From contig CAVYTE010000017.1 in NCBI GenBank assembly GCA_963771385.1, forward strand, positions 6,096-70,095: 64,000 nucleotides of DNA, read 5' to 3'. The notes beneath the pieces were generated by a model. It was given only the letters and a program-made list of their open reading frames with translations. It was not told where the DNA came from and made no database searches. The position numbers and the translations under genes are program-made. This DNA is from an uncultured Actinomycetes bacterium. Its GTDB lineage: Bacteria > Actinomycetota > UBA4738 > HRBIN12. This document shows, one piece after another, positions 10,637-49,722 of this stretch. Position 1 is the stretch's first letter; the number at the start of each line of letters is the position of its first letter.

Positions 10637-10640
10637 GGAG

Positions 10641-34232: not shown

Positions 34233-36098
34233 ATGACTCCTGCACACGGATCCCACATCCTCAGCCGTCGCTCCGTGCTGAAGTTCGCCGGTGCGACGAG
34301 CGTCTCGCTGATCGCGGCGAGCTGCGTCGAAGATCGCTCGGCGCCAGCATCCGGCGGCGCCCCCCGCGGCGACCCCGTGCCGCTGGGCCCGGATCCCCCC
34401 GATCCGAACGACGTCGTGGCGATCACTGAGGAGGTGGTCCTGCGGACCGACCTCCGCGTTGCCGGGGTGGTCGTCGAGCCGAGCGGTCATCTCATCTTCG
34501 ACCCGAACGCATCCGTCACGCTGGAGAGCTCGGGCAACGTCGTCGTTCGTGGCCGCCTGACGGTGCGGGCGGACGATCCCGCGGTCATCCACCGCATCGT
34601 CTTCCCGCAGGTCGGCGAGGAAGCGTTCGTGGGCGGGGGGCTGTACGTGCTCGACTCCGATGTCGGGCTCTGGGTGGTCGATGACGGCAGCATGGACCTG
34701 GCCGGCGCGGCCCGACTGCCCTGGACCCTCGCCGTCGGCGATGTCCCCGCCGGCGTCGACGCCATCGAGGTGCGGGATGACCCGGCGGGTTGGCAGGTCG
34801 GGGACGAGATCGTCCTGACTCCCACCACGCCGCCCACGACCGAGGGCCACGCCGAGGCCTACGACGTGCGCACGATCGCGTCGATCGAGGGACGCAAGAT
34901 CGGGTTGGCCGACCCGGTGACCCACGATCACCCCGCGATCGCATCGGCCCGAGAGACCTTCCCGCCCGCGGAGGTGCTCAACCTCACCCGGAACGTCCAG
35001 ATCGAGGGGACGCCCGAGGGCCGCGCCCACGTCTTCATCCGGTCCAACAGCCCCCAGTCGATCCGCCACGTCCAGATCCGTCATGTCGGCCCCCGCCGGC
35101 CGGCAGCGGACGCGACGGAGGCCGTCCTCGGGCGCTACGGCCTCCACTTCCACATGTCGCACGAGGGCAGTCGCGGGAGCCTCGTCGAGGGCGTCGTGGT
35201 TCGTGAGTGTGGCAACCATGCCTTCGTGCCGCACATGAGCAACGGCATCACCGTTCGCGACTGCGTCGCGCACGACGTGACCGAGGACGCCTACTGGTGG
35301 GATCCGATCGACACGACCGACGACCTGCTGCTCGAGCGGTGCGTCGCCTCGCTGGTGCGAAGCGATCCACCTGGGCGAGGGTACGCCCTCTCCGGGTTCC
35401 TGCTCGGCACGGGACGGAGCAACGTCGCGCGGAACTGCATCGCCGTCGGCGTGCAGGGGAACAGCACGGCTGGCGGCTTCACGTGGCCGGCGCGCCCGGT
35501 CCTGGCCGGCAAGTACCCGTGGACGTTCGAGGACTGCGCCGCGCACAACAACCGCGTGCTCGGAGCCTACGTCTGGCAGAACACGATCACGGCCCAGGAG
35601 GTGGTCGGCTTCCTGGCGTACCAGAACGGGGGCTCCGGGATCCTCCACGGTGCGTACCGCAACCCCTACCTCTATCGAGACTGCGTCCTGTACGCGAACG
35701 GGGTGTCGGAGCTCGAGGTCCTCGCGCAAGCGAGCGAGGCGAGCATCGAGAGCGTCACGTTCGATCGACTCGTGTTCGACGGCAACGGATTCCACGACTT
35801 CGCGGTCACGACGGGCCATCACGCGGTCGAGGCCGTGAAGCCGGTCCGCTTCGAGGGGTGCGAGTTCCGCGGGTACCGCAGGGCGGGGTTCGCCGTCGAT
35901 CCGGCACGAGACGGCGGCCAGCCCGACTGGTTCGAACTCGTGGACTGCGTGTACGAGGGGAACGAGTTCTGGATCGACTCCGCGGCGCACCCGGATGCTC
36001 GGATCCAGGTATCGGACGCGGAGCACGGCAGCATCACGCTCCGCCGGTTCGACCAGCCGGGCACCCCGGTTCCCGCCTGGAACGCAAGCGTCAGCTGA
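34233..36098 (+). CDS. Tat-secreted G8-domain / right-handed beta-helix protein (candidate polysaccharide-degrading or -modifying enzyme)
   Basis: 621-aa intact ORF. It has a twin-arginine signal ('SRRSVLKFAGATSVSLIAASC'), a G8-like N-terminal region, 'LGRYGLHFHMS' and repeated beta-helix-like segments ('NGITVRDCVAHD', 'NVARNCIAVG'). Confidence 0.6.
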   Translation: MTPAHGSHILSRRSVLKFAGATSVSLIAASCVEDRSAPASGGAPRGDPVPLGPDPPDPNDVVAITEEVVLRTDLRVAGVVVEPSGHLIFDPNASVTLESSGNVVVRGRLTVRADDPAVIHRIVFPQVGEEAFVGGGLYVLDSDVGLWVVDDGSMDLAGAARLPWTLAVGDVPAGVDAIEVRDDPAGWQVGDEIVLTPTTPPTTEGHAEAYDVRTIASIEGRKIGLADPVTHDHPAIASARETFPPAEVLNLTRNVQIEGTPEGRAHVFIRSNSPQSIRHVQIRHVGPRRPAADATEAVLGRYGLHFHMSHEGSRGSLVEGVVVRECGNHAFVPHMSNGITVRDCVAHDVTEDAYWWDPIDTTDDLLLERCVASLVRSDPPGRGYALSGFLLGTGRSNVARNCIAVGVQGNSTAGGFTWPARPVLAGKYPWTFEDCAAHNNRVLGAYVWQNTITAQEVVGFLAYQNGGSGILHGAYRNPYLYRDCVLYANGVSELEVLAQASEASIESVTFDRLVFDGNGFHDFAVTTGHHAVEAVKPVRFEGCEFRGYRRAGFAVDPARDGGQPDWFELVDCVYEGNEFWIDSAAHPDARIQVSDAEHGSITLRRFDQPGTPVPAWNASVS

Positions 36099-37230
36099 CG
36101 GTGACGTCGGCGCCCGGAGCGGACACGCCGGCGATCGTCCGGTAGACCTCCGCGTAGCGCCGGGCGATCGTCGCGATGTCGAACCGCCCGTGGATCTGCT
36201 CCGTCGCGGCCCGGCCCATCGTGGCGCGGAGCGCCGGATCCGTCACGAGGCGGAGGAGGCCATCGGCCAGCGCCGCGCGGTCGCCGGGTGGCGCGAGGAG
36301 GCCGGTGACGCCGTCCTGCACGACCTCGGCGACCCCACCGACGTCGTACGACGCGACCGGCAGACCGGCGATTCCCGCCTCGATCAGCACCGCCGGCATC
36401 CCTTCGGTTCGGCTCGACAGCACGAGGACGTCCGACGCCGCGAGCAAGTTGCCGACGTCGTCTCGCGGACCGAGCAGCCGGATGCGCTCCGCGTGGCGGC
36501 CGGATCGCATCGCCGATCCCACTCGGGATCGCAGCGGTCCGTTCCCGGCCAGGACGAGGGACGCTCCCGGCACGACGTCGAGCACGCGTTCGGCCACGTC
36601 GAGCAGCGCGAGCGGATCCTTCTCCCACGTCAGCGCTCCGACCGCGAGCAGGATCGGCGCGTCGAGCTCCACCCCCAGGGAGGCGCGTACCGCATCGCGG
36701 GACCTGGAGGCCCGGACGCGATCGGGGTCGACGCCGTTCGGCACGACGAGGGTGCGATCGAGCCGGACGCCGTAGATCTCGACGGTCTCGCTCCGAACCA
36801 CCTCGGACACGCCGATCACGAGATCGGCCCTGCGGATCAACCATCCGTACACGTGGCGCCTGGCGGCGTCGGTCACCCACGGGTGCGCGGACCCGATCCT
36901 GCGATACACGACCGGGACCCCCGAACCGAGCGCCCCGGGGATCGAGTACTTCAGCGCCTCCCCGCCGTGCGCCTGCACGACCTGCGGGCTCCATCCCCGG
37001 ACCAGCCGGCGTAGCGACCGGGCCCGCGCGATCCCGAACCTGCCCGGCCGGCCGCCGCCCAGCGCGTGGGTCGGCGCGTCGAAGCTCGCGACGATGCCCT
37101 CCGTCGCTCGAAGGACGGCCACACGTTGCTCGAACCCCTCGCTCCGCAGTGCCCGGACGAGGTCCACGGCGAACAGTTCCGCTCCGCGACGTTCGTTCGT
37201 CGCGACGACGTGCAGCACGCGACCCGACAT
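36091..37230 (-). CDS. GT-B (GT4-type) glycosyltransferase
   Basis: 379 aa at the tail of ORF 36091..38328: 'VLHVVATNERRGAELF', 'GALTWEKDPLALL' and 'LVLSSRTEGMPAVLIEAGIAGLPVASYDVGGVAEVV'. Intact. Confidence 0.8.
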   Translation of the reverse strand: MSGRVLHVVATNERRGAELFAVDLVRALRSEGFEQRVAVLRATEGIVASFDAPTHALGGGRPGRFGIARARSLRRLVRGWSPQVVQAHGGEALKYSIPGALGSGVPVVYRRIGSAHPWVTDAARRHVYGWLIRRADLVIGVSEVVRSETVEIYGVRLDRTLVVPNGVDPDRVRASRSRDAVRASLGVELDAPILLAVGALTWEKDPLALLDVAERVLDVVPGASLVLAGNGPLRSRVGSAMRSGRHAERIRLLGPRDDVGNLLAASDVLVLSSRTEGMPAVLIEAGIAGLPVASYDVGGVAEVVQDGVTGLLAPPGDRAALADGLLRLVTDPALRATMGRAATEQIHGRFDIATIARRYAEVYRTIAGVSAPGADVTVS

Positions 37231-37232: not shown

Positions 37233-38402
37233 CTAGCCCCGCGACCGGTGTCCGCGCGACGACGTCAGCCAACGGACGGGAACGAGCCACCGATGGAGGT
37301 AGGAGGTGTGCCGCCCCCCATCCCTCGCCTTCACGAACTCGCGGTCGGGGAGCACGAGGGCCCGCACGTACGCGGCCTTTGCCCCGAGCCCGGGGATCGC
37401 TCGAAGCGTCGACCGCGCGGTCCCTCCGCGGCTCCGCCGGTCGGTGAGGTACGCGTCCAACGCGCGCTGCTCGCGTGGGTCGATCTTCGCCTGGATGATC
37501 GAATGGGCGAGCGGCGGCGGTTCCACGCCGAGCACCGTCCGGGCCTCCTCCAGCGAGCGCCGAACCACGGCTCGAAGCCGCCATCGGTCGGCGAGCACGT
37601 CCAACTCCGCCCAGTCCACGTCTCCGATCGCCGCGATCTGGGCGACGTCGCGCAGCGGGACCAGCCGGACCCGGCGGGAGCCGAGGACCGCGTGCATGCA
37701 CGCGTGCAGGAACGCCCTCGTGTCGTCGAGCCGCCGGAAGGCCCGACCGCCGATCGAGAGCTCCGTGGTGCCCTCGAAGAGTCCCTCCGGCTCCATCCAG
37801 AGCCCGAACGGGCCGAGCACCAGGGTCCGGTGGAGATCGATCTGGACGCCGTCGGGACCGATATGGGTCGCGGCCTTGCCGAACCGCTCGTCGAAGCCCC
37901 GGCGTGGTTCCGGGAGCCGGCGTCGGAACCCGGCCGTCGCGAGCGCGATGCAGGCCGCTTGCCAGTCCGCCGTGCTGACGAGCAGATCGAGGTCGCCGAA
38001 CGATCGCCACGACGGATCGGGATAGAACGCGCGCGCCACGGCCGGGCCCTTCAGGACCAGGAACTCGATCCCGGCGTCCTGGAGCGAAGGGGTCACCTCG
38101 AGGAGGCGGCGCTCGAGCTGCAGCGCGACCGTCATCGCTCCGCGGTGCCGCTCGAGCAGTTGATCCGCGTCCGCCTCTGCGAGCGCCAGGGCGCCGGCCT
38201 CGAGCGCCGCGACGCCCAGGCCGGTCAGCCGCTGCGACCCGAGCCAGGCCATCGTCGCCGGCCACGCGTTGGACGCAACGGCGCGTTCGCCCGCCACGCT
38301 CCCCGGGACACCGAAGGCGGCGATCCACCGGGCCGTCGAGAGCGGGTCGGGCGCGGGCTCTCGCGTCGATCCGTCCGCCGCCAGATGCGCGGCCTCCGTC
38401 AT
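37233..38402 (-). CDS. Nucleotidyltransferase-family protein (PF14907 / NTP_transf_5-like)
   Basis: 389-aa intact ORF with 'IEFLVLKGPAVARAFYPDPSWRSFGDLDLLV' and 'IDLHRTL'. It is translationally coupled to the PqqD gene upstream and lies 3 nt from the GT start downstream. Confidence 0.6.
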   Translation of the reverse strand: MTEAAHLAADGSTREPAPDPLSTARWIAAFGVPGSVAGERAVASNAWPATMAWLGSQRLTGLGVAALEAGALALAEADADQLLERHRGAMTVALQLERRLLEVTPSLQDAGIEFLVLKGPAVARAFYPDPSWRSFGDLDLLVSTADWQAACIALATAGFRRRLPEPRRGFDERFGKAATHIGPDGVQIDLHRTLVLGPFGLWMEPEGLFEGTTELSIGGRAFRRLDDTRAFLHACMHAVLGSRRVRLVPLRDVAQIAAIGDVDWAELDVLADRWRLRAVVRRSLEEARTVLGVEPPPLAHSIIQAKIDPREQRALDAYLTDRRSRGGTARSTLRAIPGLGAKAAYVRALVLPDREFVKARDGGRHTSYLHRWLVPVRWLTSSRGHRSRG

Positions 38403-38677
38403 CGGGCGACCCGTTCCACCCAGCCTCGCCGCTGCAGCTCGTCCAGGAACGCCTCGACGTCTGCCAGCACGGCCCGCTCCTGCTGCCCGAAGGCCTCCGC
38501 GACGAGCCGGGTGACCTCCCCCGGTGCCCTCGGTACGTCGAGGACGTGCCAGACGGCGGCCGCCGTGCCCGAGAGCCGGTCGATGTCGGCGTGCCCCGCG
38601 GCCGTCAACAGGACGTCGCCTCCGACGTTGCGGACGAGCATGTCGGGGGATCGCCGCAGCTGGATCCGATCGCTCAC
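38399..38677 (-). CDS. PqqD-family protein (RRE-type peptide chaperone), copy 1
   Basis: 92 aa from GTG 38677 (overlaps the upstream stop, GTGA): 'RRSPDMLVRNVGGDVLLTAAGHADIDRLSGTAAAVWHVLDVPRAPGEVTRLVAEAFG..VEAFLDELQRRGWV'. Confidence 0.65.
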   Translation of the reverse strand: MSDRIQLRRSPDMLVRNVGGDVLLTAAGHADIDRLSGTAAAVWHVLDVPRAPGEVTRLVAEAFGQQERAVLADVEAFLDELQRRGWVERVAR

Positions 38678-39984
38678 AGCACCACGACGTTCGAGCGATG
38701 GTCCGGGCCGAAGGCGTTCCGCGCGTCGAAGACCACGCTCGCGTGGTTGGCGATCCAGTCGAGATCGTACGCCGCGTGCGGCGTCAGGATCGCGACGCAA
38801 TCGGCGGCCTCGACGGCGGGCCTCGAGAGCTCGGTCCGCGTCACGTGCAGACCGTTCACGCTGATGGTGTCCACGAAGGGGTCGTGGTACTCGATCACCG
38901 CACCGCGCCGATGCAGCTGGGCCATCACCCGGAGGGCCGGCGATTCGCGAACGTCGCCGACGTCGGCCTTGTACGACACGCCGAGCACGAGGATGCGTGC
39001 GTCCTTCACGGCCTTGCCCGCGTCGTTCAGGGCCTCACCGATCCGCTGCGCGACGTAGGTCGGCATCTGCGCGTTGATGTCCTGCGCCTGCTCGAGGATC
39101 CGGAACTGGTGGCCGGCGTCGCGCCGGATCTGCCACGAGAGGTAGGTCGGGTCGAGCGGGATGCAGTGCCCACCCACGCCGGGGCCCGGGTAGAAGGTCA
39201 TGAACCCGAAGGGTTTGGTCGAGGCGGCGTCCACGACCTCCCACACGTCGATCCCCACCTCGTGACACAGGATCGCGATCTCGTTCACGAACGCGATGTT
39301 CACGTGGCGGAAGGTGTTCTCCAGCAGCTTGCTGAGCTCCGCGGTTCGGCACGACGAGACCGGAACGACCTTGTCGACGAGCTGGCCGTAGAACAGGACG
39401 GCCACACCGGTCGATTCGGCGGACACCCCACCGACGATCTTCGGCGTGTTCCGCAGGTCGAACTCGTCGTTGCCCGGGTCGATCCGCTCCGGGGAGTACG
39501 CGAGGAGGAAGTCGCGTCCACCCTGCAGACCCGAGCGCTCCAGGATCGGCATGACGAGCTCCTCGGTCGTACCCGGGTACGTCGTCGACTCCAGGACGAC
39601 GAGCCCGCCGGGCTTGAGATGCTCGGCGACGGCCTCGGTCGCCTGCTCGACGTGGGTGAGATCCGGGGCGTGGTCCCGGACCGGCGTCGGGACGCAGATC
39701 AGGACGATGTCACAGTCCGAGATCACCTCGGGATCGGTCGTGAACTCGACCCGGCCGCTCGCCATGCCGGCCCGGTAGAGCTCCTCCCGGACACCCGCGA
39801 CCGAGAGCGTCCCCTGACGGAGGTCGGAGAGGCGTGCGTCATCGACGTCGATCCCGTACACGCTGAATCCGGCCTCCGCCGCGGCGCACGACAGCGAGAG
39901 GCCGACGTACCCTTGTCCGATCACGCCGATCCTCGCTTTGCGCGCGAGGATCCGGCGCCGGAGCAGCGCGGTCGTCTTGATGAT
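38674..39984 (-). CDS. UDP-sugar / nucleotide-sugar 6-dehydrogenase (UDP-glucose/GDP-mannose dehydrogenase family)
   Basis: ORF 38674..39924 contains 'GQGYVGLSL', 'AYSPERIDPG' and 'PGPGVGGHCIPLDP'. GTG 39924 would truncate Rossmann strand beta-1 ('RIGVIG' is encoded just upstream). GGAGG at 39988..39992 is followed by ATC ATC (39984, 39981). The start is therefore uncertain. Confidence 0.8.
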   Translation of the reverse strand: MIKTTALLRRRILARKARIGVIGQGYVGLSLSCAAAEAGFSVYGIDVDDARLSDLRQGTLSVAGVREELYRAGMASGRVEFTTDPEVISDCDIVLICVPTPVRDHAPDLTHVEQATEAVAEHLKPGGLVVLESTTYPGTTEELVMPILERSGLQGGRDFLLAYSPERIDPGNDEFDLRNTPKIVGGVSAESTGVAVLFYGQLVDKVVPVSSCRTAELSKLLENTFRHVNIAFVNEIAILCHEVGIDVWEVVDAASTKPFGFMTFYPGPGVGGHCIPLDPTYLSWQIRRDAGHQFRILEQAQDINAQMPTYVAQRIGEALNDAGKAVKDARILVLGVSYKADVGDVRESPALRVMAQLHRRGAVIEYHDPFVDTISVNGLHVTRTELSRPAVEAADCVAILTPHAAYDLDWIANHASVVFDARNAFGPDHRSNVVVL

Positions 39985-40040: not shown

Positions 40041-40829
40041 TTACGACTCTCGGTTCGCGAGCGGATCGGGCGTGGCCCGCCGGGCGCGACGGGGCGCGCC
40101 CCCCCGGAGGGCTCGTTTCATCCGTCGTTGCGCCAGGAACAACCGGTCGGGCACGCTGCGCGTGCGATCCCCGAACCGCTCCCGCACCTCCTCGAGATGG
40201 GTCATCGCGGGCGCGTACTCCTCGAGGTCGCGGCCGAAACCGGACACGTCGTCCGGCGACCAATGGTTGTGATGCAGGCAGACGGTCCACACGCCGGGCG
40301 GCTGCGGCTTGAACCTCCAGCTCTGCATCGGGACCCAGAACGTGCCGGCTCGATCCCGATACGGGGACAGGGCGAGCCCGTCGCTGACCACCTCGACCCC
40401 GCAGGCGAGCAGGGCCGCGACGGTCGACCGGTCGAACGCATGGTTCGGGGCTACCCAGGCCTCGGGGACGACCCCGTGCTCGCGGAAGATCGCCGTGCCG
40501 GCCCGCAGCTTCTCGAGCTGCTCCTCGTACGCCAGGCCGGCGAACTCGCTGCGTGCGTTCCAGCCGAACAGCCCCGGATCCTCCGACACGTAGAGGTGCT
40601 GGTACCCGTGCAGGGCGATCGCCCAGCCCCGCGCCTGCCAGTCACGAACCCGCTCCCAGAAATCCGCCGCCGCGGGCTCGAGCTCGAGCGACGGGTCTCG
40701 GTTGTCCGGGATGACGGCGAGGATCGGCCGCACGCCGGTCTCCACGAGCAGCCGTTCGACCTGCTCCCAGATCGTCCAGTTCATCGTCGGACACAGGTCG
40801 TCGAACCGCACGAGGTAGGTGGCCTTCAT
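40041..40829 (-). CDS. DUF2334-domain protein (polysaccharide-deacetylase-like fold)
   Basis: 262-aa intact ORF with 'YLVRFDDLCPTMNWTIWEQVERLLVETGVRPILAVIPDNRDPSL' and 'GWAIALHGYQH'. Confidence 0.65.
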   Translation of the reverse strand: MKATYLVRFDDLCPTMNWTIWEQVERLLVETGVRPILAVIPDNRDPSLELEPAAADFWERVRDWQARGWAIALHGYQHLYVSEDPGLFGWNARSEFAGLAYEEQLEKLRAGTAIFREHGVVPEAWVAPNHAFDRSTVAALLACGVEVVSDGLALSPYRDRAGTFWVPMQSWRFKPQPPGVWTVCLHHNHWSPDDVSGFGRDLEEYAPAMTHLEEVRERFGDRTRSVPDRLFLAQRRMKRALRGGAPRRARRATPDPLANRES

Positions 40830-42034
40830 CCCTCCGTCACCCCTCGCTCGTCGATCCGAACCTCCGTGTTGCCGTGTGCCCGTCCGCCCGCGGACAGCAC
40901 CCGTTCGTAGAGCTCGAACATCCCGCGCGCGGCGCGCTCGGCCGTGTACCGGTCGAGGAAGCGCTCCCTGCCGCGCTCGGCCCGCCGCGACGACTCATCG
41001 CTATCGGCGAGGGTCTCGCCGATGGCCGCGGCGAGTTCCCCGGCGTCTCCGACCCGCGCGAGGAGCCCGATGTCGTGGCCGTCGAAGACCTCCCGCACCG
41101 CGGGAAGGTCGCTCGCGACGGTGGGCGCCTCGAGCGCCATCGCCTCGAGCAACACCCCGGGCAGCCCCTCGCGCCGGGAGGGCAGGACGAAGACGTCGGC
41201 CGCGCACAGGAGGTCCGGCACGTCGCCCCGCGTTCCCAGGAAGACGACCGAGCCGGCCAGATCACCACGGGTCGCGCGCTCCCGGAGGAGCGCCGTCGCG
41301 TTCCCATCCGCGCCGGCAACGAGCAGTCGTGCGGCGACGCGTTCGGACCGCACCGAACCGAACGCGTCGAGGAGGACGTCCAGACCCTTCGCGTGGTCCT
41401 GCCGAGCGATCGCCACGATCACCGGCACATCGTTCCCCACCTCGAGCCGCGATCGGGCCGCGCGTCGCCGGTCCTGCGACCGGCGACCGAGCACCTGCGG
41501 GTCCCTGCCCCTGGGGACCACCGTGAAGCGGCCCCGTGGGACGCGCAGCCGCCGGGCCATCGTATCGGCGATGTGCTGCGCGGGAACGTGGAACCGGACG
41601 ACCGATCGCGCCGTCGCCGCGTCGGCGGCCTGCGCCGCACGCACCTTCCACCGGCGGAGCCCGGGCTCGCTCAGGTGCGCGGAGCCGTACCCCTCGCTCA
41701 CGATGCTCGACACGACCGGCACCCGAGCCAGCCGGCCCGCGATCCGGCCGAGGAGATCGGCCTCGTACAGCGTGGTGTGAAGGAGGTCCGGCCGCCGTTC
41801 GCCGAGCACCCGACGGACGCGGCGGAGATCGCCGGTGCGGCCGCCCGGGCCGTCCAGCGGCAACAGCGTGGCGCCGCTCTCGCGGAGCAGGTCGTGCACA
41901 CCCGGACGCTCGCGCAGATACGCGACGTCGAGGCGAACGCCCGCGGCGACGAGGTCCGGCGCCATGGAGGCGAGCGAACGCTCCGCGCCTCCCATCGCCA
42001 GGCTGTCGATCAGGTACAGGACGTGCACGCTCAA
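40826..42034 (-). CDS. GT-B (GT4-type) glycosyltransferase
   Basis: 402 aa at the tail of ORF 40826..43738: 'VHVLYLIDSLAMGGAERSL', 'ARQDHAKGLDVLL' and 'FVLPSRREGLPGVLLEAMALEAPTVASDLPAVREV'. TTG 42034 overlaps the upstream stop (TTGA). Confidence 0.8.
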   Translation of the reverse strand: MSVHVLYLIDSLAMGGAERSLASMAPDLVAAGVRLDVAYLRERPGVHDLLRESGATLLPLDGPGGRTGDLRRVRRVLGERRPDLLHTTLYEADLLGRIAGRLARVPVVSSIVSEGYGSAHLSEPGLRRWKVRAAQAADAATARSVVRFHVPAQHIADTMARRLRVPRGRFTVVPRGRDPQVLGRRSQDRRRAARSRLEVGNDVPVIVAIARQDHAKGLDVLLDAFGSVRSERVAARLLVAGADGNATALLRERATRGDLAGSVVFLGTRGDVPDLLCAADVFVLPSRREGLPGVLLEAMALEAPTVASDLPAVREVFDGHDIGLLARVGDAGELAAAIGETLADSDESSRRAERGRERFLDRYTAERAARGMFELYERVLSAGGRAHGNTEVRIDERGVTEG

Positions 42035-43734
42035 CCCCGTCCCCTCGGCCCGCCGGCGGGCGCGGGCGACGAGCTCGTGGCAACCGTCTCCGACCCACCG
42101 CCGGATCCGCTGCGTGAACGGGCGCCGGCGGTCGACCCGGCGGCGACCTCTTCCAACCGCCGGCGATCCACCTTGCCCGTCGAGGTGCGGGGCAGCTCGT
42201 CCAGGATCTCGACGCTCGCCGGGACCATGTACCGGGGGAGCCGCTCGGCCACGTGGCGCTTCACGTCGCTCGTGGCGATCACCGCTCCGCGGTTCGCAAC
42301 GACGCACGCCACGATGGCGGTGCCCCAGCCGTCGTGCGGCACGGCGATCGCGACGGCGTCGGCGAGCGCGGGATGCGCGCGCAGGGCGACCTCGATCTCC
42401 CCGAGCTCGATGCGGTACCCGCGGCTCTTGATCTGATGGTCCCGGCGGCCCAGGAAGTCGAAGGCACCGTCCGGCCGCAGCCGCACGAGGTCCCCGGTTC
42501 GATAGACGGGCTCCCCCGCGTGCGCGGGCAGCGGGCTGGGCGAGAGGACCTCGGCGGTCTTGTCCGGCCGCCCCCAGTAGCCGCGCATCACCGTCGCGCC
42601 GCGCACGTACAGCTCGCCCTGTTCGCCCACCGCGGCGAGCGCACCCGCGTCCGTCCATGCGAAGACCTCGGTGTTCTCGCACGCGCGGCCGATCGGGATC
42701 GTCCGGTCGTCCTCGGGGATCTCGTCGACGCGGTGGTAGGTACAGACGTTCGTCTCGGTCGGGCCGTAGAGGTTCCACAGGGCGGCGTCGGGGACGACAT
42801 GGCGCAGCGTCCGCAGATCCCTCGTCGGATAGACCTCTCCGGCGAAGACGACCGTCCGCAGATCCGGGAAGGCCCCCGGCTCTCGTCCGGTCCGCGCGAG
42901 CAACGTGAGCGCGGTCGGTACCGAGTACCAGATCGTGATCCGCTCCGACCGGACGAACCTGGCGAGCTCGGTGCCGAGGAACGCGATCTCCTCGGGGACG
43001 AGCACGACCGTCGCGCGGCCGAGGGCCGCGAGGAACAGGTCGAAGACCGAGAGATCGAAATGCAGCGGCGCGTGGTTCGACAGCCGGTCGCCGGGCTCCA
43101 CACCGATCCGAGCGGCGCTCCACTCCACGAACGTCAGCGCGTTGCGGTGGGTGAGCGTGACGCCCTTCGGGACGCCCGTCGAGCCCGAGGTGTACAGGAT
43201 GTAGGCGACGTCGGTGTCGATCACCGGGACCTCGGGGTCGCTCGCCGGACGCGACGCCGAGTCGAAGTCGATCACGGTGGACGGCAGCCGGCCGGCCTCG
43301 GACCCGTCGTCGGCCAGCACCACGAGGCGGGGCGGTGGCCCATCCATCTGTGACAGGAGGGCCGTCGCACGCCCGGGCGTCGTGACGAGCGCCGAGATCG
43401 CGCAGTCCTGCGCCACCATCGCGACGCGCGGAGCGGGGGCCTTCGGATCGAGCGGCACGTAGGCGGCCCCCGCCTTCAAGACGCCGTAGACGGCGACGAG
43501 GGTCTCGACGCGCTTCGGCAGGTGGATCCCGACGCGGTCCCCAGGGCGGACGCCGGTGTCGAGCAGCGTCCGCGCCAGCCCGTTCGCCGCGCCCGCGAGC
43601 TCCGCGTACGTGAGCTCGACCCCCGCGCAGCGCACGGCGGGGTGCTCGGGACGTTCCCTCGCCGCCTCGTCGAGGAGCTGGTGCAGGAGGAAGCTCACGC
43701 CGGGTCGCCCGACCTTCCGGCGCCGCTCGCGCAT
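42031..43734 (-). CDS. Stand-alone adenylation enzyme (NRPS A-domain / DltA-like amino-acid--carrier-protein ligase)
   Basis: 567-aa intact ORF with 'LTYAELAGAANGLA', 'AYILYTSGSTGVPKGV', 'HFDLSVFDLF', 'NLYGPTETNV', 'YRTGDLV', 'GRRDHQIKSRGYRIELGEIE' and 'PRTSTGKVDR'. Confidence 0.85.
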   Translation of the reverse strand: MRERRRKVGRPGVSFLLHQLLDEAARERPEHPAVRCAGVELTYAELAGAANGLARTLLDTGVRPGDRVGIHLPKRVETLVAVYGVLKAGAAYVPLDPKAPAPRVAMVAQDCAISALVTTPGRATALLSQMDGPPPRLVVLADDGSEAGRLPSTVIDFDSASRPASDPEVPVIDTDVAYILYTSGSTGVPKGVTLTHRNALTFVEWSAARIGVEPGDRLSNHAPLHFDLSVFDLFLAALGRATVVLVPEEIAFLGTELARFVRSERITIWYSVPTALTLLARTGREPGAFPDLRTVVFAGEVYPTRDLRTLRHVVPDAALWNLYGPTETNVCTYHRVDEIPEDDRTIPIGRACENTEVFAWTDAGALAAVGEQGELYVRGATVMRGYWGRPDKTAEVLSPSPLPAHAGEPVYRTGDLVRLRPDGAFDFLGRRDHQIKSRGYRIELGEIEVALRAHPALADAVAIAVPHDGWGTAIVACVVANRGAVIATSDVKRHVAERLPRYMVPASVEILDELPRTSTGKVDRRRLEEVAAGSTAGARSRSGSGGGSETVATSSSPAPAGGPRGRG

Positions 43735-43756
43735 GCAATCCCGCCGGGCGCCATCG

Positions 43757-44920
43757 TCACAGCCCCAGATCGCGCGCGATGATGCGACGCTGGATCTCCG
43801 AGGTCCCCGAATAGATCGTGCCGCCGACCGCGTCGCGCAGCGACCGTTCGACCTCGACCTCGGTCATGTACCCGTATCCCCCATGGATCTGCACGGCGTC
43901 CAGTTGCGTTCGGACGTTCGCCTCGCTCACGAACGCCTTGGCCACCGCGGCCTCCACCGTGGCGTCCCTGCCCGCATCCATGAGCCAGCCGACCCGGAGC
44001 ACGAGCGCGCGGGCGGCGTCGACCGCGATCCGCATGTTCGCGATCTTGTCGGCGACGGAACCGAACTTGCCGATCGGTTGTCCGAACTGGCGACGTTGGC
44101 GCGCGTACTCCGCGCAGCTCTCCATCGTCCGGCGCATGAGCCCGACCTGGCTGGCCATGATGCAGGCGCGTTCCCACCGCATCGACTCCTGGAAGATCTC
44201 GCCTCCCCGCCCGCGCTCGCCGAGGATCGCCTCCTCCGGCACGGAGCAGTCATCGAGGATGACTTCGGACATCGGCGAGGTCCGAAGGCCCATCTTGTCG
44301 AACTCCCGACTGACGGAGCACCCACGCGTTCCGCGCTCGACGAGGAACGCGGTGATCCCGAAGGGTCCGATCCCCTCGGAGGTGCGGGCGAACACGATGA
44401 GGAGGTCCGCGACCGGCGCGTTCGTGATGAAGACCTTCCGTCCGTCCAGGGCGTACCCCCCCGGCACGCGCCGGGCGGTCGCCCGCATGGCGAACGCGTC
44501 GGACCCCGCCTCGGGCTCGGTGATCGCGTGGCACCCGATCAGCCCTCCCGAGCACAGACCCGGCAGCCATCTCGCGCGCTGCTCCTCGGACCCGAACCGC
44601 CACAGGGGGATCACGCTCGTCCACAGGTGTGCGTTGATCGAGAACACGAGCCCATTGTCGCGACAGCCGTACCCGAGTCCCTCCAGCGCAAGCATCGTCG
44701 TGACGACGTCGGCTCCGCCGCCCCCGAGGTCCTGCGGGACGGGCAACCCCTGGATCCCGAACGCCCCGCACCGGTCCCACACCTCGCGCGAGAACTCCGC
44801 GCTCCGATCCCGCTCGCGCGTGTCGTCCGGAAGCGTCCGCGCGAACCGCGTCACGGCCTCGAAGAACTCCGACTGCTCGGGGGTGACCCACTCGACGACC
44901 GACGGGGCCGACACCGTCAC
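43757..44920 (-). CDS. Acyl-CoA dehydrogenase-family flavoprotein (probably acts on an acyl/aminoacyl-S-carrier protein)
   Basis: 387 aa from GTG 44920 (GTGA overlap with the ACP stop): 'GCHAITEPEAGSDAFAM', 'FITNAPVADL', 'QIHGGYGYM' and 'IYSGTSEIQRRIIA'. Confidence 0.8.
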   Translation of the reverse strand: MTVSAPSVVEWVTPEQSEFFEAVTRFARTLPDDTRERDRSAEFSREVWDRCGAFGIQGLPVPQDLGGGGADVVTTMLALEGLGYGCRDNGLVFSINAHLWTSVIPLWRFGSEEQRARWLPGLCSGGLIGCHAITEPEAGSDAFAMRATARRVPGGYALDGRKVFITNAPVADLLIVFARTSEGIGPFGITAFLVERGTRGCSVSREFDKMGLRTSPMSEVILDDCSVPEEAILGERGRGGEIFQESMRWERACIMASQVGLMRRTMESCAEYARQRRQFGQPIGKFGSVADKIANMRIAVDAARALVLRVGWLMDAGRDATVEAAVAKAFVSEANVRTQLDAVQIHGGYGYMTEVEVERSLRDAVGGTIYSGTSEIQRRIIARDLGL

Positions 44921-45162
44921 TGCTGCGCGACCCGGGAGTTCACGAGGTTGTCGATGTCCGCGATCGTACGGAAGTGCTCGACGGTCACCTCTTCGTCCTG
45001 CACCTCGATGTCGAACTCCTCCTCGAGGAACGCGACGAGCTGCATGAGTCCGAGCGAATCGAGGACCCCGTCGAGCAACGGCGTCTCGTTCGTGAGGGCG
45101 ACGGAGTCGTCCTCGAAGAGGATCTCGGTCTGGATGAAGCCGCGGATGCGATCGGCGTTCAT
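44917..45162 (-). CDS. Acyl/peptidyl carrier protein (ACP-2), paralogue of ACP-1
   Basis: 81 aa at the tail of ORF 44917..45510, starting 'MNADRIRGFIQTEILF' and containing 'LLDGVLDSLGLMQLVAFLEEEF'. AAGGAG lies upstream of ATG 45162. Confidence 0.85.
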   Translation of the reverse strand: MNADRIRGFIQTEILFEDDSVALTNETPLLDGVLDSLGLMQLVAFLEEEFDIEVQDEEVTVEHFRTIADIDNLVNSRVAQQ

Positions 45163-45212
45163 GGGAACGCTCCTTTCCGTGATCGATGCTCGTGCGGATG
45201 TGGCGCCGGCCG

Positions 45213-45572
45213 CTACGCCGCGACCTGCGGATCGCCCAGTTGCACGATCCGCCGGATGGCGCTGCCCCGGAGACGGAAGCACTGCCGCCTCGAGACGCCG
45301 AGCTCCTGCGCGATCTCGCCGACACCGAGCTCGCGCAGGTACCACAGGATCAGGACCAGACGGTCGCGCTCGGGGAGGAGCAGGAAACGCCGGCGGAGCT
45401 CGGACCGCTCGTCCAAGGAGTCGACCAGACCGGGATGCAGACCGTCGTGTCCGCTCCGTGTGCGTCGGGCGTGGCCGACCTCGATCACCGACGAGGTCGA
45501 CGGCTGCCACCAGTCCGTGTACCGCAGGAGGCCTCGAACCACGCCGCCTTCGGACGCAAGTAGGTCCGACAT
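45213..45572 (-). CDS. Small sigma-70 region-4-like HTH protein (no region 2 recognisable)
   Basis: 119 aa at the tail of ORF 45213..46262: 'LLLPERDRLVLILWYLRELGVGEIAQELGVSRRQCFRLRGSAIRRI'. Confidence 0.55.
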   Translation of the reverse strand: MSDLLASEGGVVRGLLRYTDWWQPSTSSVIEVGHARRTRSGHDGLHPGLVDSLDERSELRRRFLLLPERDRLVLILWYLRELGVGEIAQELGVSRRQCFRLRGSAIRRIVQLGDPQVAA

Positions 45573-45580
45573 CTTAGAGG

Positions 45581-47134
45581 TTAGTCCTCCGAGGAGGGAC
45601 GCGATAGGGGGGGATTCCCCGCATGCCCGTCCTCGCGCGCCCGCACGTACGCGTGGTAGCCGGACGGCACCGGGATCTCCTTGGCCGCGTTCAGCACCAC
45701 GCCCAGGATCGGTGCCCCGAGGCGCTCGAGGACCTCCGTCGTGCGCGCCGCGATCTCGGGCCGAGTCCATCCCGCCCTCGCGACGACGAGCACGCCGTCG
45801 ACGAACGGCAACAGATAGGCCGCGTCGCTCACCGCCAGGATCGGGGCGGAGTCCAGCACGACGATGTCCGCGACGGCCTTCGCCTCGGCGACGGCGGCTC
45901 GCATGTGCTCCGAGCTGAGCAGCATGCTCGGGGTCTCCCTCGCCGGTCCGCTCGGCACGACCCGCACGCTGTCGTGGGGCGTGTCCCACGTGCACTCGGC
46001 GAGCAACGGCCTGCCGTTCGCCGTGCTCAGGGCGTCGACGAGGCCGGTGTCGTTCGGCACGCCGAAGAACCGGTGGACGTCGGGGTGGCGGAAGTCGCAG
46101 GCGAGCACGATGACCCGCTTCCCCGTCTCCGCGAGCGCGACGGCGAGGTTCGCGGCAACGGTCGTCTTGCCTTCGGACGGACCCGAGCTCGTGACCAGCA
46201 GGGCCCTCGGCTCGTCCGAGGACACGAGCGAGGGCTTCACCTTGCCGTTCGTGATCGACCACCGGGCGACCTCGGTGCCGAGCAGCCGGAACGCCTCGGC
46301 CGGAAGCGAGGTTGGCTCGTTGGCGGACACGATCGTGTCACGCTGGCTCCGCGGGATCTGTGGGATCTCCGCGAGGACCGGCAGCGCGAACCCCTGCTCC
46401 GCGACGCTCTTCGAACGGATCCGCGTGTCGACCCGTGCCAGCAGGATCGCGATCCCGAGCCCGATCGCCAGGCCGAGGAGTCCCGCGATCAGGGCGCGGA
46501 CCGCGAAGCTGCGGGGCGGCTGGAACCCGAGATCCGGCGCGATCCGCGCGGGGCCCGCATCGATCCGCCCGTATCCGGGGTCGAACTGCGCCACGGCCAG
46601 CGCCTGGAGCTGGTTCTCGAACTGAGCGATGAGCACCGAGTCGGGATCGCTCTCCATCAGCGACTCGATCTGTGCCTCCAGCTGTGCGATGTAGGGTCCC
46701 GTCGTCTCCGTCCGAAGCTCCCCGAGGAACCCGATCACCGCGGTTCCGAACGCATCCGCGATCTCCTCGGCGCTCTCGGCGTCCGGCCCGGAAGCGGTGA
46801 TCGTGACGAAGCCCGACTCGGCGTCGACGCCCGCCGACACCTGGGTCATGAGGTCGCGCGGGTCTCCCTCGTAGCCGAGCCGCTGCGCGGCCCGATCGGC
46901 GACCTCGTAGAGGAACACGAACTCCCGGACCGCCTCCGGTTCCGTCGTGCTGATCCCGAGCGCGGGGTTCTGGAGCGATGCCGCGAGGATGACGTCCGCC
47001 TCCCAGGTCTGGGTCTGGGCCGCCTCGCTCTCGTCGGCGCGCGTGAACCACGCGGCGGCAACCGCGACGAACACGCACGAGACGACGATCAGCCAGTGCT
47101 GGCGGACCGCTCGGAGCACGTCCATCATGCCCAC
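45581..47134 (-). CDS. Polysaccharide co-polymerase fused to BY-type tyrosine autokinase (Wzz + CpsD/CapB-like ATPase)
   Basis: 517-aa intact ORF with an N-terminal TM segment ('HWLIVVSCVFVAVAAAW') and a second TM segment ('ALIAGLLGLAIGLGIAILLA'). It has Walker A 'SSGPSEGKTTVAANLA', A' 'VLACDFRHP' and B 'IVVLDSAP'. Only two Tyr lie in the C-terminal tail ('SGYHAYV'). Confidence 0.8.
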   Translation of the reverse strand: MGMMDVLRAVRQHWLIVVSCVFVAVAAAWFTRADESEAAQTQTWEADVILAASLQNPALGISTTEPEAVREFVFLYEVADRAAQRLGYEGDPRDLMTQVSAGVDAESGFVTITASGPDAESAEEIADAFGTAVIGFLGELRTETTGPYIAQLEAQIESLMESDPDSVLIAQFENQLQALAVAQFDPGYGRIDAGPARIAPDLGFQPPRSFAVRALIAGLLGLAIGLGIAILLARVDTRIRSKSVAEQGFALPVLAEIPQIPRSQRDTIVSANEPTSLPAEAFRLLGTEVARWSITNGKVKPSLVSSDEPRALLVTSSGPSEGKTTVAANLAVALAETGKRVIVLACDFRHPDVHRFFGVPNDTGLVDALSTANGRPLLAECTWDTPHDSVRVVPSGPARETPSMLLSSEHMRAAVAEAKAVADIVVLDSAPILAVSDAAYLLPFVDGVLVVARAGWTRPEIAARTTEVLERLGAPILGVVLNAAKEIPVPSGYHAYVRAREDGHAGNPPLSRPSSED

Positions 47135-49586: not shown

Positions 49587-49722
49587 GCCGAACCTCCCCG
49601 GTTGCTTCGAAGACCCGCAGCATAGGCACGCGTCCTGCACCCCTCATCAATCACGGTGCGTAACTTCGCTACGCCGAACCGCGTAAGGGGATGCCCGAGC
49701 CCGACTCCGGGGGACATCTACG

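What the first reader, a model, noticed from the sequence alone, without database searches (positions are those of the whole stretch)
37233..38677. PqqD chaperone and PF14907-like nucleotidyltransferase translationally coupled inside the sugar-biosynthesis operon
Seen: the minus-strand operon runs from 49586 to 36091 in the order capD, LuxR, BY-kinase, sigma-like protein, ACP, ACAD, A-domain enzyme, GT, DUF2334, UDP-sugar dehydrogenase, PqqD, nucleotidyltransferase, GT. Most junctions show start/stop overlaps (GTGA/ATGA/TTGA). PqqD-1 GTG 38677 overlaps the dehydrogenase stop, and the nucleotidyltransferase start overlaps the PqqD stop. Inference: a peptide-binding RRE wired stoichiometrically into a glycan-assembly operon suggests a peptide is a substrate, primer or acceptor in this pathway. 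The most obvious candidate is the Cys-rich protein at 50390.
Basis: partly seen in the sequence, partly recalled or inferred. Interest (0 to 1): 0.6.

Follow-up and report, generated by a model that had tools for sequence, protein, structure and literature searches.

The report
Peptide chaperone paired with sugar-operon nucleotidyltransferase
A small peptide-binding chaperone and an uncharacterised nucleotidyltransferase, read together in the middle of a cell-surface sugar operon of an uncultured soil actinobacterium, look like the second half of a kinase-plus-transferase system that decorates small exported cysteine-rich proteins, and the gene order suggests which sugar donor this poorly understood enzyme family uses.

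Summary
PqqD-1 (38399-38677, minus; PF05402, 39.8 bits) overlaps the stop of the nucleotide-sugar dehydrogenase (GTGA). It also overlaps the start of a PF14907 nucleotidyltransferase (37233-38402; 116.6 bits; ATGA).

- PqqD-1 models at pLDDT 94 as a RiPP recognition element. Its best PDB matches are the lasso B1 proteins bound to leader peptides (TM 0.82-0.85).
- The pair is conserved. A PqqD lies directly upstream of the transferase in 62 of 70 loci across Actinomycetota.

The transferase-adjacent PqqDs form their own clade (100/99 support), separate from the PqqD-2 clade that sits beside HprK-like kinases and the precursor genes. Those precursors, including the 50390 ORF, carry a twin-arginine signal with an embedded WxxPx[ILV] motif, the known RRE-binding motif. 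Precursor leader, kinase and transferase co-occur across 201 genomes of the order. The window's genome has one transferase and two kinase homologues, all in this window.

The closest known systems are the Bacillota linear polyphosphorylated peptides (LppK/LppB/LppN) and pseudomycoidin PsmK/PsmN. This locus differs in having two dedicated RREs, a Tat leader, no SpI peptidase or ABC exporter, and a transferase coupled to the dehydrogenase. I class it as a new variant of a known kind. No biochemistry has been shown.

The parts
38399..38677 (-). PqqD-1: 92-aa RiPP recognition element (RRE), the nucleotidyltransferase-dedicated paralogue
   Evidence: PF05402 39.8 bits. AF2 pLDDT 94.2 with topology beta1-4, alpha1-3, beta5. 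Foldseek best matches are TbiB1-leader complexes, TM 0.82-0.85. The transferase-adjacent PqqDs form one clade, 100/99 support. GTGA and ATGA overlaps with its neighbours.
37233..38402 (-). PF14907 (NTP_transf_5) nucleotidyltransferase-fold enzyme, 389 aa; predicted catalytic K118-G119, D137, D139, D189/H191
   Evidence: PF14907 116.6 bits. These residues are invariant in 24 homologues. AF2 pLDDT 88.7. Structural neighbours are MenT1, LnuA, ANT(2'')-Ia and FKRP. It is the only PF14907 gene in the genome.
38674..39924 (-). Nucleotide-sugar 6-dehydrogenase, closest to UDP-N-acetylhexosamine dehydrogenases (WecC/TviB); translationally coupled to PqqD-1 and a conserved member of the module
   Evidence: Pfam UDPG_MGDP_dh N, central and C domains. 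TIGR03026 419 bits; the best equivalog-type matches are UDP-ManNAc dehydrogenases, below their cut-offs. An orthologue lies within 10 kb of the transferase in 33 of 43 loci of at least 15 kb, in two different arrangements.
36091..37230 (-). GT4 glycosyltransferase starting 2 nt after the transferase stop
   Evidence: Glycos_transf_1 and Glyco_transf_4; junction read. The same position is occupied in the closest orthologue, L001.
49885..50190 (+). PqqD-2: RRE of the kinase/precursor-adjacent clade (start codon uncertain, ORF open from 49723)
   Evidence: PF05402 55.4 bits. TIGR04353 HPr-rel-A PqqD 35.1 bits against a cut-off of 35. It belongs to the clade separate from PqqD-1. Only a marginal local BLASTP match to PqqD-1 (E 0.056).
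50390..50794 (+). Candidate substrate: 134-aa protein with a twin-arginine signal (NRRDFLRK) containing WAAPVI (WxxPx[ILV]), an AFA/AQA cleavage site, then QGTPPP and a 10-Cys domain
   Evidence: TAT signal models hit. The leader is conserved in 51 unique relatives, all with WxxPx[LVIFAM], while the cores vary widely.
50815..51639 (-). HprK-like kinase with an intact P-loop (DAGKSS)
   Evidence: TIGR04352 99.1 bits, below the cut-off of 200. Sequence. One of only two such genes in the genome.
51719..52531 (-). Second HprK-like protein lacking the Walker A GK[ST]; probable non-catalytic partner
   Evidence: TIGR04352 44.2 bits. Sequence. The paired arrangement is conserved in G149, G072 and G161.
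40041..49650 (-). Upstream genes of the same operon: capD (frameshifted here), LuxR, BY-kinase, sigma-region-4 protein, ACP, prolyl-PCP-dehydrogenase-like ACAD, adenylation enzyme, GT4, DUF2334 deacetylase-like
   Evidence: Pfam and NCBIfam. The synteny capD-LuxR-BYK-sig4-[ACP/ACAD/A]-UGDH-PqqD1-NTase recurs in relatives.

Best explanation
PqqD-1 and the PF14907 enzyme are the second tailoring step of a split peptide- or protein-modification system related to HprK/RRE/NTP_transf_5 systems. The first step is encoded 12 kb upstream: PqqD-2, an active HprK-like kinase and a degenerate paralogue.

**Substrates.** These are small proteins whose twin-arginine signal peptide doubles as a RiPP-type leader, because it carries the RRE-binding motif WxxPx[ILV]. 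Here they are the 50390 ORF and a second, unlinked short precursor on another contig.

**Proposed order of events.**
1. In the cytoplasm, PqqD-2 binds the leader and presents the protein to the kinase. The kinase phosphorylates a Ser or Thr just after the signal cleavage site (the recurrent G[ST]P).
2. PqqD-1 binds the same leader and presents the phospho-protein to the nucleotidyltransferase-fold enzyme. That enzyme adds a sugar, or a nucleotide-activated group, to the phosphate, as PsmN does in pseudomycoidin.
3. The most likely donor is the UDP-(N-acetyl)hexuronic acid made by the dehydrogenase translated immediately upstream.
4. The modified, folded protein leaves through Tat, and signal peptidase removes the leader.

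**Shown here:** the genes, their coupling, the RRE fold, the two RRE clades with strictly separate partners, the leader motif, and the co-occurrence.

**Inferred:** every biochemical step, the order of steps, the acceptor residue and the donor.
For: **Observation and families.**

**RRE fold of PqqD-1.** pLDDT 94.2. Its topology is identical to that described for LppB and PbaB1. The best PDB matches are leader-bound lasso B1 proteins.

**Conservation of the pair.** A PqqD of the transferase-adjacent type lies directly upstream of the transferase in 62 of 70 genome loci with room upstream, and never one of the other type. In two of the exceptions it still follows the dehydrogenase. The transferase-adjacent and kinase/leader-adjacent PqqDs fall on two sides of one branch, 100/99 support.

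**Physical linkage.** In Acidimicrobiia the order is PqqD1-NTase-X-HprK-PqqD2 on one strand. In the window's own genome the single PF14907 gene and both HprK-like genes lie in this window.

**Co-occurrence across 201 genomes of the order.**
- leader vs kinase: 38/47 against 10/154
- leader vs transferase: 25/47 against 11/154
- transferase vs kinase: 28/36 against 20/165

**Leader motif.** W and P are invariant in 25 aligned leaders. All 51 unique leader hits have WxxPx[LVIFAM]; 41 of 51 have Ser or Thr in the first 8 core residues. Of 29 crude Tat-like signals elsewhere in the genome, only 2 contain any [WY]xxP motif, and the Tat signal of the neighbouring beta-helix protein lacks it.

**Precedent.**
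- PsmN is needed to add hexose to phospho-Ser, and its D134A/D136A mutant is inactive (PMC6993621). D137 and D139 are invariant in this family.
- LppN is Pfam NTP_transf_5. LPP clusters sit in capsule loci, LppK phosphorylates Ser3 of the core, and the authors suspect LppN needs a partner or a rare substrate encoded outside the core cluster (PMC13381572).

**Dehydrogenase link.** Its orthologue is within 10 kb in 33 of 43 loci. It sits next to PqqD1-NTase in one arrangement and directly downstream of the precursor gene in the other.

**Export route.** TatC is present in the genome, and no SpI-type peptidase or ABC exporter is on this contig.
Against: - No experiment and no expression data.
- Binding of the leader by PqqD-1 is not shown. 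PqqD-1 lacks the 'HHLNPSA.IW.LCDG' block of PqqD-2 and is barely alignable with it, so it could recognise something else.
- 22 of 47 genomes with the leader lack a full-length transferase, and 11 of 36 with the transferase lack the leader. The transferase step is therefore not obligatory, although many of these genomes are incomplete MAGs.
- Co-occurrence figures are not corrected for relatedness.
- The locus also has everything for an ordinary Und-PP/Wzx-dependent polysaccharide: a WecA-like transferase, a Wzx-like flippase and a BY-kinase. The transferase could therefore act on the glycan.
- In the one heterologous test of an LPP cluster, deleting lppN changed nothing.
- The clade with 'AQY...' cores has no Ser or Thr immediately after the cleavage site.
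Confidence: 0.6

Rival explanations
1. The PF14907 enzyme decorates the polysaccharide or its lipid-linked precursor. It would do this in the manner of LicD/FKRP-type nucleotidyltransferase-fold phosphotransferases, which move a phospho-alcohol from a CDP- or UDP-activated donor onto a sugar. PqqD-1 would be a structural or regulatory subunit that no longer binds a peptide. The linkage to the kinase and the Tat proteins would only reflect a shared surface-glycan regulon.
For: - FKRP is among the structural neighbours of the model.
- The gene sits between a sugar dehydrogenase and a GT4 glycosyltransferase, inside a locus with WecA-like, Wzx-like and BY-kinase genes.
- In L004 the transferase has no adjacent PqqD and lies next to a Wzx-type flippase.
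- PqqD-1 lacks the motif block of PqqD-2.
- 11 of 36 transferase-positive genomes lack the leader family.
Against: - A PqqD of one dedicated clade is kept directly upstream in 62 of 70 loci. It models as a complete RRE whose closest structures are leader-bound B1 proteins.
- In Acidimicrobiia the pair is in one gene string with the kinase and PqqD-2.
- The only characterised PF14907-type enzyme acts on a phosphorylated peptide.
- In L004 a PqqD-1 is still present after the dehydrogenase.
Confidence: 0.15
2. The pair does act on the leader-bearing proteins, but the chemistry is true nucleotidylylation. AMP or UMP would be added to a Ser, Thr or Tyr hydroxyl or to the phosphate. The product would be either a stable modification or an activated protein-P-P-nucleoside intermediate, rather than a directly transferred sugar.
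For: - The closest structural neighbours are bona fide nucleotidyltransferases: MenT1, LnuA and ANT(2'')-Ia.
- The G...DxD...D signature is invariant.
- The authors of the PsmN work could not exclude that PsmN makes a substrate for a host glycosyltransferase rather than transferring hexose itself.
- The 'AQY' cores offer a Tyr at the expected position.
Against: - In vivo, PsmN-dependent products carried +162 Da hexose units, not nucleotides.
- The conserved coupling to a nucleotide-sugar dehydrogenase argues for a sugar donor.
Confidence: 0.15
3. PqqD-1 recognises a different peptide from PqqD-2. Candidates are another part of the precursor, a second precursor class, or a tail of a neighbouring protein such as the BY-kinase. 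On this view the two RREs serve two separate pathways that merely share a locus.
For: - The two PqqDs are deeply diverged clades.
- RRE paralogues are known to discriminate between similar leaders (PMC13381572).
- BYK-PqqD1-NTase is the conserved order in Acidimicrobiia.
Against: - Only one leader family was found to track the system.
- There is only one transferase and one kinase pair in the genome.
- No second conserved small ORF was seen beside the pair in 13 examined loci.
Confidence: 0.1

Closest known systems
Linear polyphosphorylated peptides (LPP) of Bacillota: LppA/K/B/S/D/N (Popov et al., Nat Commun 2026, PMC13381572)
   Same: - Discrete PqqD-type RRE, HprK-like kinase and NTP_transf_5 (PF14907) transferase. 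The Pfam names are given in their Supplementary Data 2.
- Clusters embedded in capsule or exopolysaccharide loci.
- One to several precursors of 35-200 aa, each with a conserved N-terminal leader carrying [Y/W]xxPx[V/L] and a hypervariable C-terminal part.
- Phosphorylation site close to the start of the core, at Ser3.
   Different: - Here there are two RRE paralogues, one fixed to the kinase and precursor and one fixed to the transferase.
- The leader is a twin-arginine signal peptide.
- No SipW-type SpI peptidase and no MsbA-type exporter is on this contig.
- The kinase is paired with a degenerate paralogue.
- The transferase is translationally coupled to a nucleotide-sugar dehydrogenase.
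- The host phylum is Actinomycetota.
- The cores are Cys-rich domains of about 50-260 aa.
Paeninodin-type lasso peptide tailoring: PadeK/PsmK kinase and PsmN nucleotidyltransferase (pseudomycoidin; Zyubko et al. 2019, PMC6993621)
   Same: - An HprK-like kinase phosphorylates a Ser of an RRE-recognised precursor.
- A nucleotidyltransferase of the 'uncharacterised' family is needed to add one or two hexoses to the phosphate.
- The DxD pair is essential (D134/D136 there; D137/D139 invariant here).
   Different: - No lasso cyclase or B2 protease is present here.
- The acceptor there is the C-terminal Ser. Here the conserved Ser or Thr is at the core N-terminus.
- There, a single RRE (B1) serves the whole pathway.
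NCBIfam/TIGRFAMs 'HPr-rel-A system' (TIGR04352 HprK-related kinase A, TIGR04353 PqqD family peptide chaperone)
   Same: An HprK-related kinase next to a PqqD-family chaperone. PqqD-2 reaches the TIGR04353 cut-off (35.1 against 35), and both kinases have TIGR04352 as their best hit.
   Different: - The kinases score 99 and 44 bits against a cut-off of 200.
- PqqD-1 does not match TIGR04353 at all.
- No paper describing that system was found in the library.
Lasso peptide B1 RREs (TbiB1, PDB 5V1V/5V1U; another B1, PDB 6JX3)
   Same: Same winged-helix fold: TM 0.82-0.85 to TbiB1 and 0.74-0.79 to 6jx3. The candidate ligand motif WxxPx[ILV] belongs to the [Y/W]xxPx[L/V/I/F/A] class that these proteins bind.
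   Different: Sequence identity is only 17-18%. The partner enzyme is a nucleotidyltransferase, not a B2 protease or cyclase.

Membership tests
Pfam PF05402 PqqD / RiPP recognition element (RRE) | Sequence match above the gathering score | tested here: met
   39.8 bits against a cut-off of 23.4
Pfam PF05402 PqqD / RiPP recognition element (RRE) | Winged helix-turn-helix fold: three-stranded sheet plus three helices, with terminal strands locking the N and C termini | tested here: met
   AF2 pLDDT 94.2, elements E5-9, E13-18, E21-26, E33-35, H37-45, H52-62, H67-84, E87-91. Best PDB matches are TbiB1 and another lasso B1 protein (6jx3). Topology as described in PMC13381572.
Pfam PF05402 PqqD / RiPP recognition element (RRE) | Binds a leader peptide | not testable with these tools
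   Only single chains can be modelled. A candidate ligand with WxxPx[ILV] exists.
Pfam PF14907 NTP_transf_5 | Full-length match above the gathering score, with the nucleotidyltransferase-fold signature G..DxD..D | tested here: met
   116.6 bits, profile positions 3-248 of 249. K118-G119, D137, D139, D189 and H191 are invariant in 24 homologues. Nucleotidyltransferase-fold neighbours.
Linear polyphosphorylated peptide (LPP) clusters | Archaeal-type signal peptidase I (LppS, TIGR02228) in the cluster | tested here: not met
   No TIGR02228 match on the window's contig. There are two weak hits on other contigs.
Linear polyphosphorylated peptide (LPP) clusters | MsbA-like ABC exporter (LppD) | tested here: not met
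   No ABC_membrane match on the window's contig. Some relatives do have one after the transferase, for example L002.
Linear polyphosphorylated peptide (LPP) clusters | Discrete RRE + HprK-like kinase + NTP_transf_5 transferase | tested here: met
   The family names in the LPP paper are confirmed.
Linear polyphosphorylated peptide (LPP) clusters | Precursor leader with YxxPxVLxHQxIxFETxxS | tested here: not met
   The leader here is RRxxL[KR]R...WxxPx[ILV]Q[ST]...AxA. Only the [Y/W]xxPx[V/L] core is shared.
Linear polyphosphorylated peptide (LPP) clusters | Multiple phosphorylation of a Ser near the core N-terminus | not testable with these tools
   A conserved G[ST]P follows the predicted cleavage site in 28 of 51 leader-bearing proteins.
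NCBIfam HPr-rel-A system | PqqD matches TIGR04353 above its cut-off | tested here: not met
   PqqD-1 has no TIGR04353 hit at E<=0.01. PqqD-2 scores 35.1 against 35.
NCBIfam HPr-rel-A system | Kinase matches TIGR04352 above its cut-off | tested here: not met
   99.1 and 44.2 bits against a cut-off of 200
Lasso peptide biosynthesis | Asparagine-synthetase-like cyclase (C) and transglutaminase-like B2 protease | tested here: inconclusive
   None appeared among the window ORFs scanned with Pfam, but the scan was not exhaustive. The own genome was not searched for these families.

The most novel reading that the evidence does not exclude
The twin-arginine signal peptide serves as a RiPP-type leader for a two-chaperone relay: PqqD-2 with the kinase, then PqqD-1 with the transferase. 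The relay would install a phosphodiester-linked uronic acid on exported proteins. That phospho-sugar would then be the primer or attachment point for the polysaccharide made by the surrounding locus, so the locus would build a bacterial proteophosphoglycan. The leader would act as a sorting tag shared by up to 16 proteins per genome, analogous in logic to PEP-CTERM/exosortase systems in EPS loci.
Probability: 0.15. Interest if true: 0.85.

Novelty: new variant of a known kind. Interest (0 to 1): 0.62.

Why it matters
The biochemical role of PF14907 transferases in peptide pathways is unresolved. PsmN is needed for hexose addition, but direct transfer was never shown. LppN was silent in the only heterologous test, and its authors suspect a missing partner or a rare substrate.

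The actinobacterial arrangement supplies concrete candidates for both:
- a dedicated chaperone (PqqD-1) that always precedes the enzyme;
- a nucleotide-sugar dehydrogenase that stays with the system in two unrelated gene orders.

That turns an open question into a small co-expression experiment.

The finding also extends HprK/RRE/NTP_transf_5 tailoring from short Bacillota peptides to Tat-exported, disulfide-rich proteins in a large group of uncultured soil and freshwater Actinomycetota. It shows a division of labour between two RRE paralogues. It suggests that a general export signal can carry a RiPP recognition motif. And it gives a possible reason why such systems sit inside polysaccharide loci.

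Tried and rejected
- **PDB sequence searches.** The transferase profile and the kinase found nothing, even at E<=1. Only fold comparison was informative.
- **Word-based homologue search with PqqD-1.** It returned just 7 close relatives. I built the alignment for structure prediction from PqqD genes next to transferase homologues in fetched loci instead.
- **Possible PqqD1-transferase fusions (L101, L093).** The two lie in one open frame, but the linker is Arg-rich and looks like an out-of-frame read-through in high-GC DNA. I do not count them as Rosetta-stone evidence.
- **First Tat-signal regular expression.** It was too strict and missed the window's own precursor. It is used only to show that [WY]xxP is not a general feature of Tat-like signals.
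- **Beta-helix/G8 protein (34377-36098) as another substrate.** Rejected: its Tat signal is lipoprotein-like and lacks WxxP.
- **Membership of the LPP family or the HPr-rel-A equivalogs.** Rejected on defining features.
- **Literature.** Searches for HPr-rel-A/TIGR04352 and for NTP_transf_5 in main texts found nothing. PF14907 appears once, in an unrelated phosphonate survey.
Full report
**1. The observation**

The window is about 70% G+C, so open frames alone mean little. Third-position G+C picks out three consecutive minus-strand genes:
- 38674-39924, GC3 0.92
- 38399-38677, GC3 0.89
- 37233-38402, GC3 0.89

Pfam assigns them as follows:
- a UDP-glucose/GDP-mannose-type dehydrogenase, with all three domains
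- PqqD, PF05402, 39.8 bits against a cut-off of 23.4
- NTP_transf_5, PF14907, 116.6 bits, full length

Reading the DNA confirms the junctions:
- The PqqD GTG overlaps the dehydrogenase TGA (GTGA).
- The transferase ATG overlaps the PqqD TGA (ATGA).
- The next GT4 glycosyltransferase starts two bases after the transferase stop.

One public gene call starts PqqD-1 at an internal ATG (80 aa). Orthologues conserve the residues upstream of that ATG, so the GTG start is the better model.

**2. The second module**

Twelve kilobases upstream, and divergent from capD, lie four more genes:
- a second PqqD (49885-50190; TIGR04353 at its cut-off)
- a 134-aa protein with a twin-arginine signal and ten cysteines (50390-50794)
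- an HprK-like protein with an intact P-loop (50815-51639)
- an HprK-like protein with no P-loop (51719-52531)

The genome is a 3.4-Mb, 75%-complete MAG. It has exactly one PF14907 gene and two HprK-like genes, all in this window.

**3. Conservation of the pair**

The transferase has hundreds of homologues in uncultured Actinomycetota. I examined three sets of loci.
- Three loci with precomputed annotation.
- Thirteen loci assembled from relatives in the same order. The recurring string is capD-LuxR-BY-kinase-sigma-region-4 protein-[optional ACP/ACAD/adenylation enzyme]-dehydrogenase-PqqD-transferase. HprK-like genes, a second PqqD and one to six Tat-leader genes sit at one end of the glycan locus or the other.
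- Eighty loci from named genome records. These span Acidimicrobiia, Nitriliruptorales and other Actinomycetota, including the cultured strain IMCC26256.

In the 80-locus set, a PqqD lies directly upstream of the transferase in 62 of the 70 loci that have room upstream. In two of the eight exceptions the PqqD still follows the dehydrogenase, but other genes have been inserted before the transferase.

In Acidimicrobiia the whole system is compact and on one strand: BY-kinase-like, PqqD-1, transferase, an unknown 519-aa protein, HprK-like, then PqqD-2 fused to a further domain.

**4. Two RRE clades**

I built a maximum-likelihood tree of 114 PqqD domains from these loci. The labels came only from genomic context. 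The 64 transferase-adjacent and 43 kinase/leader-adjacent sequences fall on opposite sides of a single branch with 100/99 support. In the window the two proteins give only a marginal local BLASTP match (E 0.056). PqqD-1 is therefore a dedicated, anciently separated partner of the transferase, not a spare copy of PqqD-2.

**5.

With a 57-sequence alignment, AlphaFold2 gives PqqD-1 a mean pLDDT of 94.2. The model has four strands, three helices and a closing strand. This is the topology described for LppB and PbaB1. Foldseek against the PDB ranks the TbiB1-leader complexes first (TM 0.82-0.85). Further down the list are ThcOx, PqqD itself and another lasso B1 protein solved with its leader peptide (6jx3). 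The RRE fold is met.

**6. The candidate ligand**

Every relative of the 50390 protein found with a leader profile has a conserved N-terminus followed by a highly variable core. There are 51 unique sequences. The N-terminus reads RRxxL[KR]R, then a hydrophobic stretch containing WxxPx[LVIFAM], then Q[ST] and an AxA site. The cores are mostly Cys-rich and 50-260 residues long. W and P are invariant in an alignment of 25 leaders.

[Y/W]xxPx[L/V/I/F/A] is the motif that discrete lasso and LPP RREs bind in a hydrophobic cleft (PMC13381572). It is not a general property of Tat signals in this genome:
- Only 2 of 29 crude Tat-like signals contain any [WY]xxP, and neither matched the leader profile in the same genome scan.
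- The Tat signal of the neighbouring beta-helix protein lacks it.

After the predicted cleavage site, 41 of 51 proteins have Ser or Thr within eight residues, and 28 have [ST]P within twelve. In LPPs the kinase phosphorylates Ser3 of the core.

A second leader-bearing ORF with a short Lys-rich core lies on another contig of the same genome. Some relatives carry 10-16 leader genes.

**7. Co-occurrence**

I compared strong hits in 201 genomes sampled from the same order.

| Pair | With the first feature | Without the first feature | Fisher p |
|---|---|---|---|
| leader, then kinase present | 38 of 47 | 10 of 154 | 3e-23 |
| leader, then full-length transferase present | 25 of 47 | 11 of 154 | 4e-11 |
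| transferase, then kinase present | 28 of 36 | 20 of 165 | 1e-14 |

Where a transferase and a kinase are on one contig they are almost always within 36 kb.

These figures are not corrected for relatedness, and many genomes are fragmentary. They show clustering, not proof. The transferase is less tightly tied to the leader than the kinase is, so it looks like an accessory second step.

**8. The transferase**

The conserved core is LKGP...YPDPSWRxFGDLDLLV...VDLHRTLV. K118, G119, D137, D139, D189 and H191 are invariant. The model has pLDDT 88.7. Its structural neighbours are nucleotidyltransferase-fold enzymes:
- MenT1
- LnuA
- ANT(2'')-Ia, the same template family that the PsmN authors found
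- the ribitol-phosphate transferase FKRP

No solved relative is detectable by sequence.

The literature gives three relevant points:
- PsmN is required for adding one or two hexoses to the phosphorylated Ser of pseudomycoidin, and its D134A/D136A mutant is inactive. Direct transfer was not demonstrated (PMC6993621).
- LppN of the Bacillota LPP clusters is listed as Pfam NTP_transf_5 in that paper's supplementary table.
- Deleting lppN had no effect in Bacillus subtilis. The authors suggest it needs a partner or a rare substrate encoded outside the core cluster.

**9. The dehydrogenase**

It is a nucleotide-sugar dehydrogenase (TIGR03026, 419 bits). It is nearest to the UDP-ManNAc and UDP-GlcNAc 6-dehydrogenases, below their equivalog cut-offs. 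An orthologue scoring 425-450 bits against it lies within 10 kb of the transferase in 33 of 43 loci of at least 15 kb. It occurs in two different arrangements:
- immediately upstream of PqqD-1, as in the window's lineage
- immediately downstream of the precursor gene on the other strand, as in Acidimicrobiia

This persistence through rearrangement is my reason to propose its product as the donor. That is inference only.

**10. Best explanation**

The pair is the second step of a two-chaperone tailoring system for Tat-leader proteins.
1. PqqD-2 and the kinase phosphorylate a Ser or Thr near the start of the core.
2. PqqD-1 presents the same leader to the transferase, which adds a sugar, probably a uronic acid, to the phosphate.
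3. Tat, which carries folded proteins, exports the product, and signal peptidase removes the leader.

TatC is present in the genome. No SpI-type peptidase or MsbA-type exporter lies on this contig. Confidence is 0.6 that the pair acts on these proteins, and perhaps half that for the specific chemistry.

The rivals are:
- action on the glycan, with PqqD-1 as a non-peptide-binding subunit (0.15)
- true nucleotidylylation of the protein (0.15)
- a different peptide ligand for PqqD-1 (0.1)

**11. Comparison with known systems**

The system works like the LPP and paeninodin/pseudomycoidin tailoring sets. It is not a member of the LPP family as defined, because it has no SpI, no exporter and a different leader. 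It is also not a member of the NCBIfam HPr-rel-A equivalogs: the kinases score 99 and 44 bits against a cut-off of 200, and PqqD-1 has no TIGR04353 match.

The new features are:
- two RRE paralogues with fixed partners
- a Tat signal used as the leader
- protein-sized Cys-rich cores
- a transferase wired to a sugar dehydrogenase

Earlier notes of this scan had already described the PqqD-2/Tat/kinase module and pointed to the LPP paper. I read the paper and re-derived the leader motif and the co-occurrence independently. What this report adds is the analysis of the PqqD-1/transferase half.

**12. Limits**

Nothing here is biochemical. Leader binding, the acceptor residue, the donor and the order of steps are all inferred.

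Noticed in passing
window 47691-49650 (-): capD (PglF-like polysaccharide dehydratase) is split over two overlapping frames near 48013-48113. Pfam Polysacc_synt_2 positions 1-180 are in one frame and 199-290 in the other. Orthologues in L001 and L002 are intact at 630-651 aa. This is either a frameshift or an assembly error.
   Followed up: partly
own genome G000:C12:146268-146399 (outside the window): A second ORF has the same leader (RRDFLKR...AWAAPVIQTVAAT...AYA) but only a 19-residue core, NGMGSPKSKKKKKPKKPPG. It is far from any kinase, PqqD or transferase. It looks like an orphan short precursor.
   Followed up: partly
order-level genomes G076, G049, G200: The leader family is multi-copy, with 16, 11 and 10 strong hits per genome, many on contigs other than the kinase locus. 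This resembles a sorting-tag family such as PEP-CTERM more than a single precursor.
   Followed up: no
L062 (Actinobacteria bacterium IMCC26256, CP011489) 7750-16500: The cultured acidimicrobial strain has a compact cassette: BY-kinase-like, PqqD-1, PF14907 transferase, an unknown 519-aa protein, an HprK-like kinase, then PqqD-2 fused to a 280-aa domain of unknown function. A PMT_2 (GT-C) glycosyltransferase is on the opposite strand.
   Followed up: partly
L101 5051-6481 and L093 8234-11086: PqqD-1 and the transferase lie in one open frame, so they may be fusion proteins. The linker is Arg-rich and may instead be an out-of-frame read-through in high-GC DNA.
   Followed up: partly
window 42031-45162 (-): The ACAD between the ACP and the adenylation enzyme scores 439 and 421 bits against the prolyl-carrier-protein dehydrogenases PigA and RedW, below their cut-offs. 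This suggests a pyrrole-2-carboxyl-type acyl unit made inside the glycan operon. The trio is present in some relatives and absent in others.
   Followed up: partly
L060 and L083 (genome contigs records): Contigs deposited as 'MAG: Bordetella parapertussis' and 'MAG: Bifidobacterium breve' carry loci nearly identical to that of the acidimicrobial strain IMCC26256. These are probably mislabelled or contaminated bins.
   Followed up: no
window 1028-2629 (-), 25995-26963 (-), 24625-25857 (-): A Wzx-type flippase, a WecA-like initiating transferase and a DegT-type aminotransferase are present. Together with capD, these show that the surrounding locus is an ordinary Und-PP-linked, Wzx-dependent pathway for an amino-sugar-containing glycan.
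   Followed up: partly
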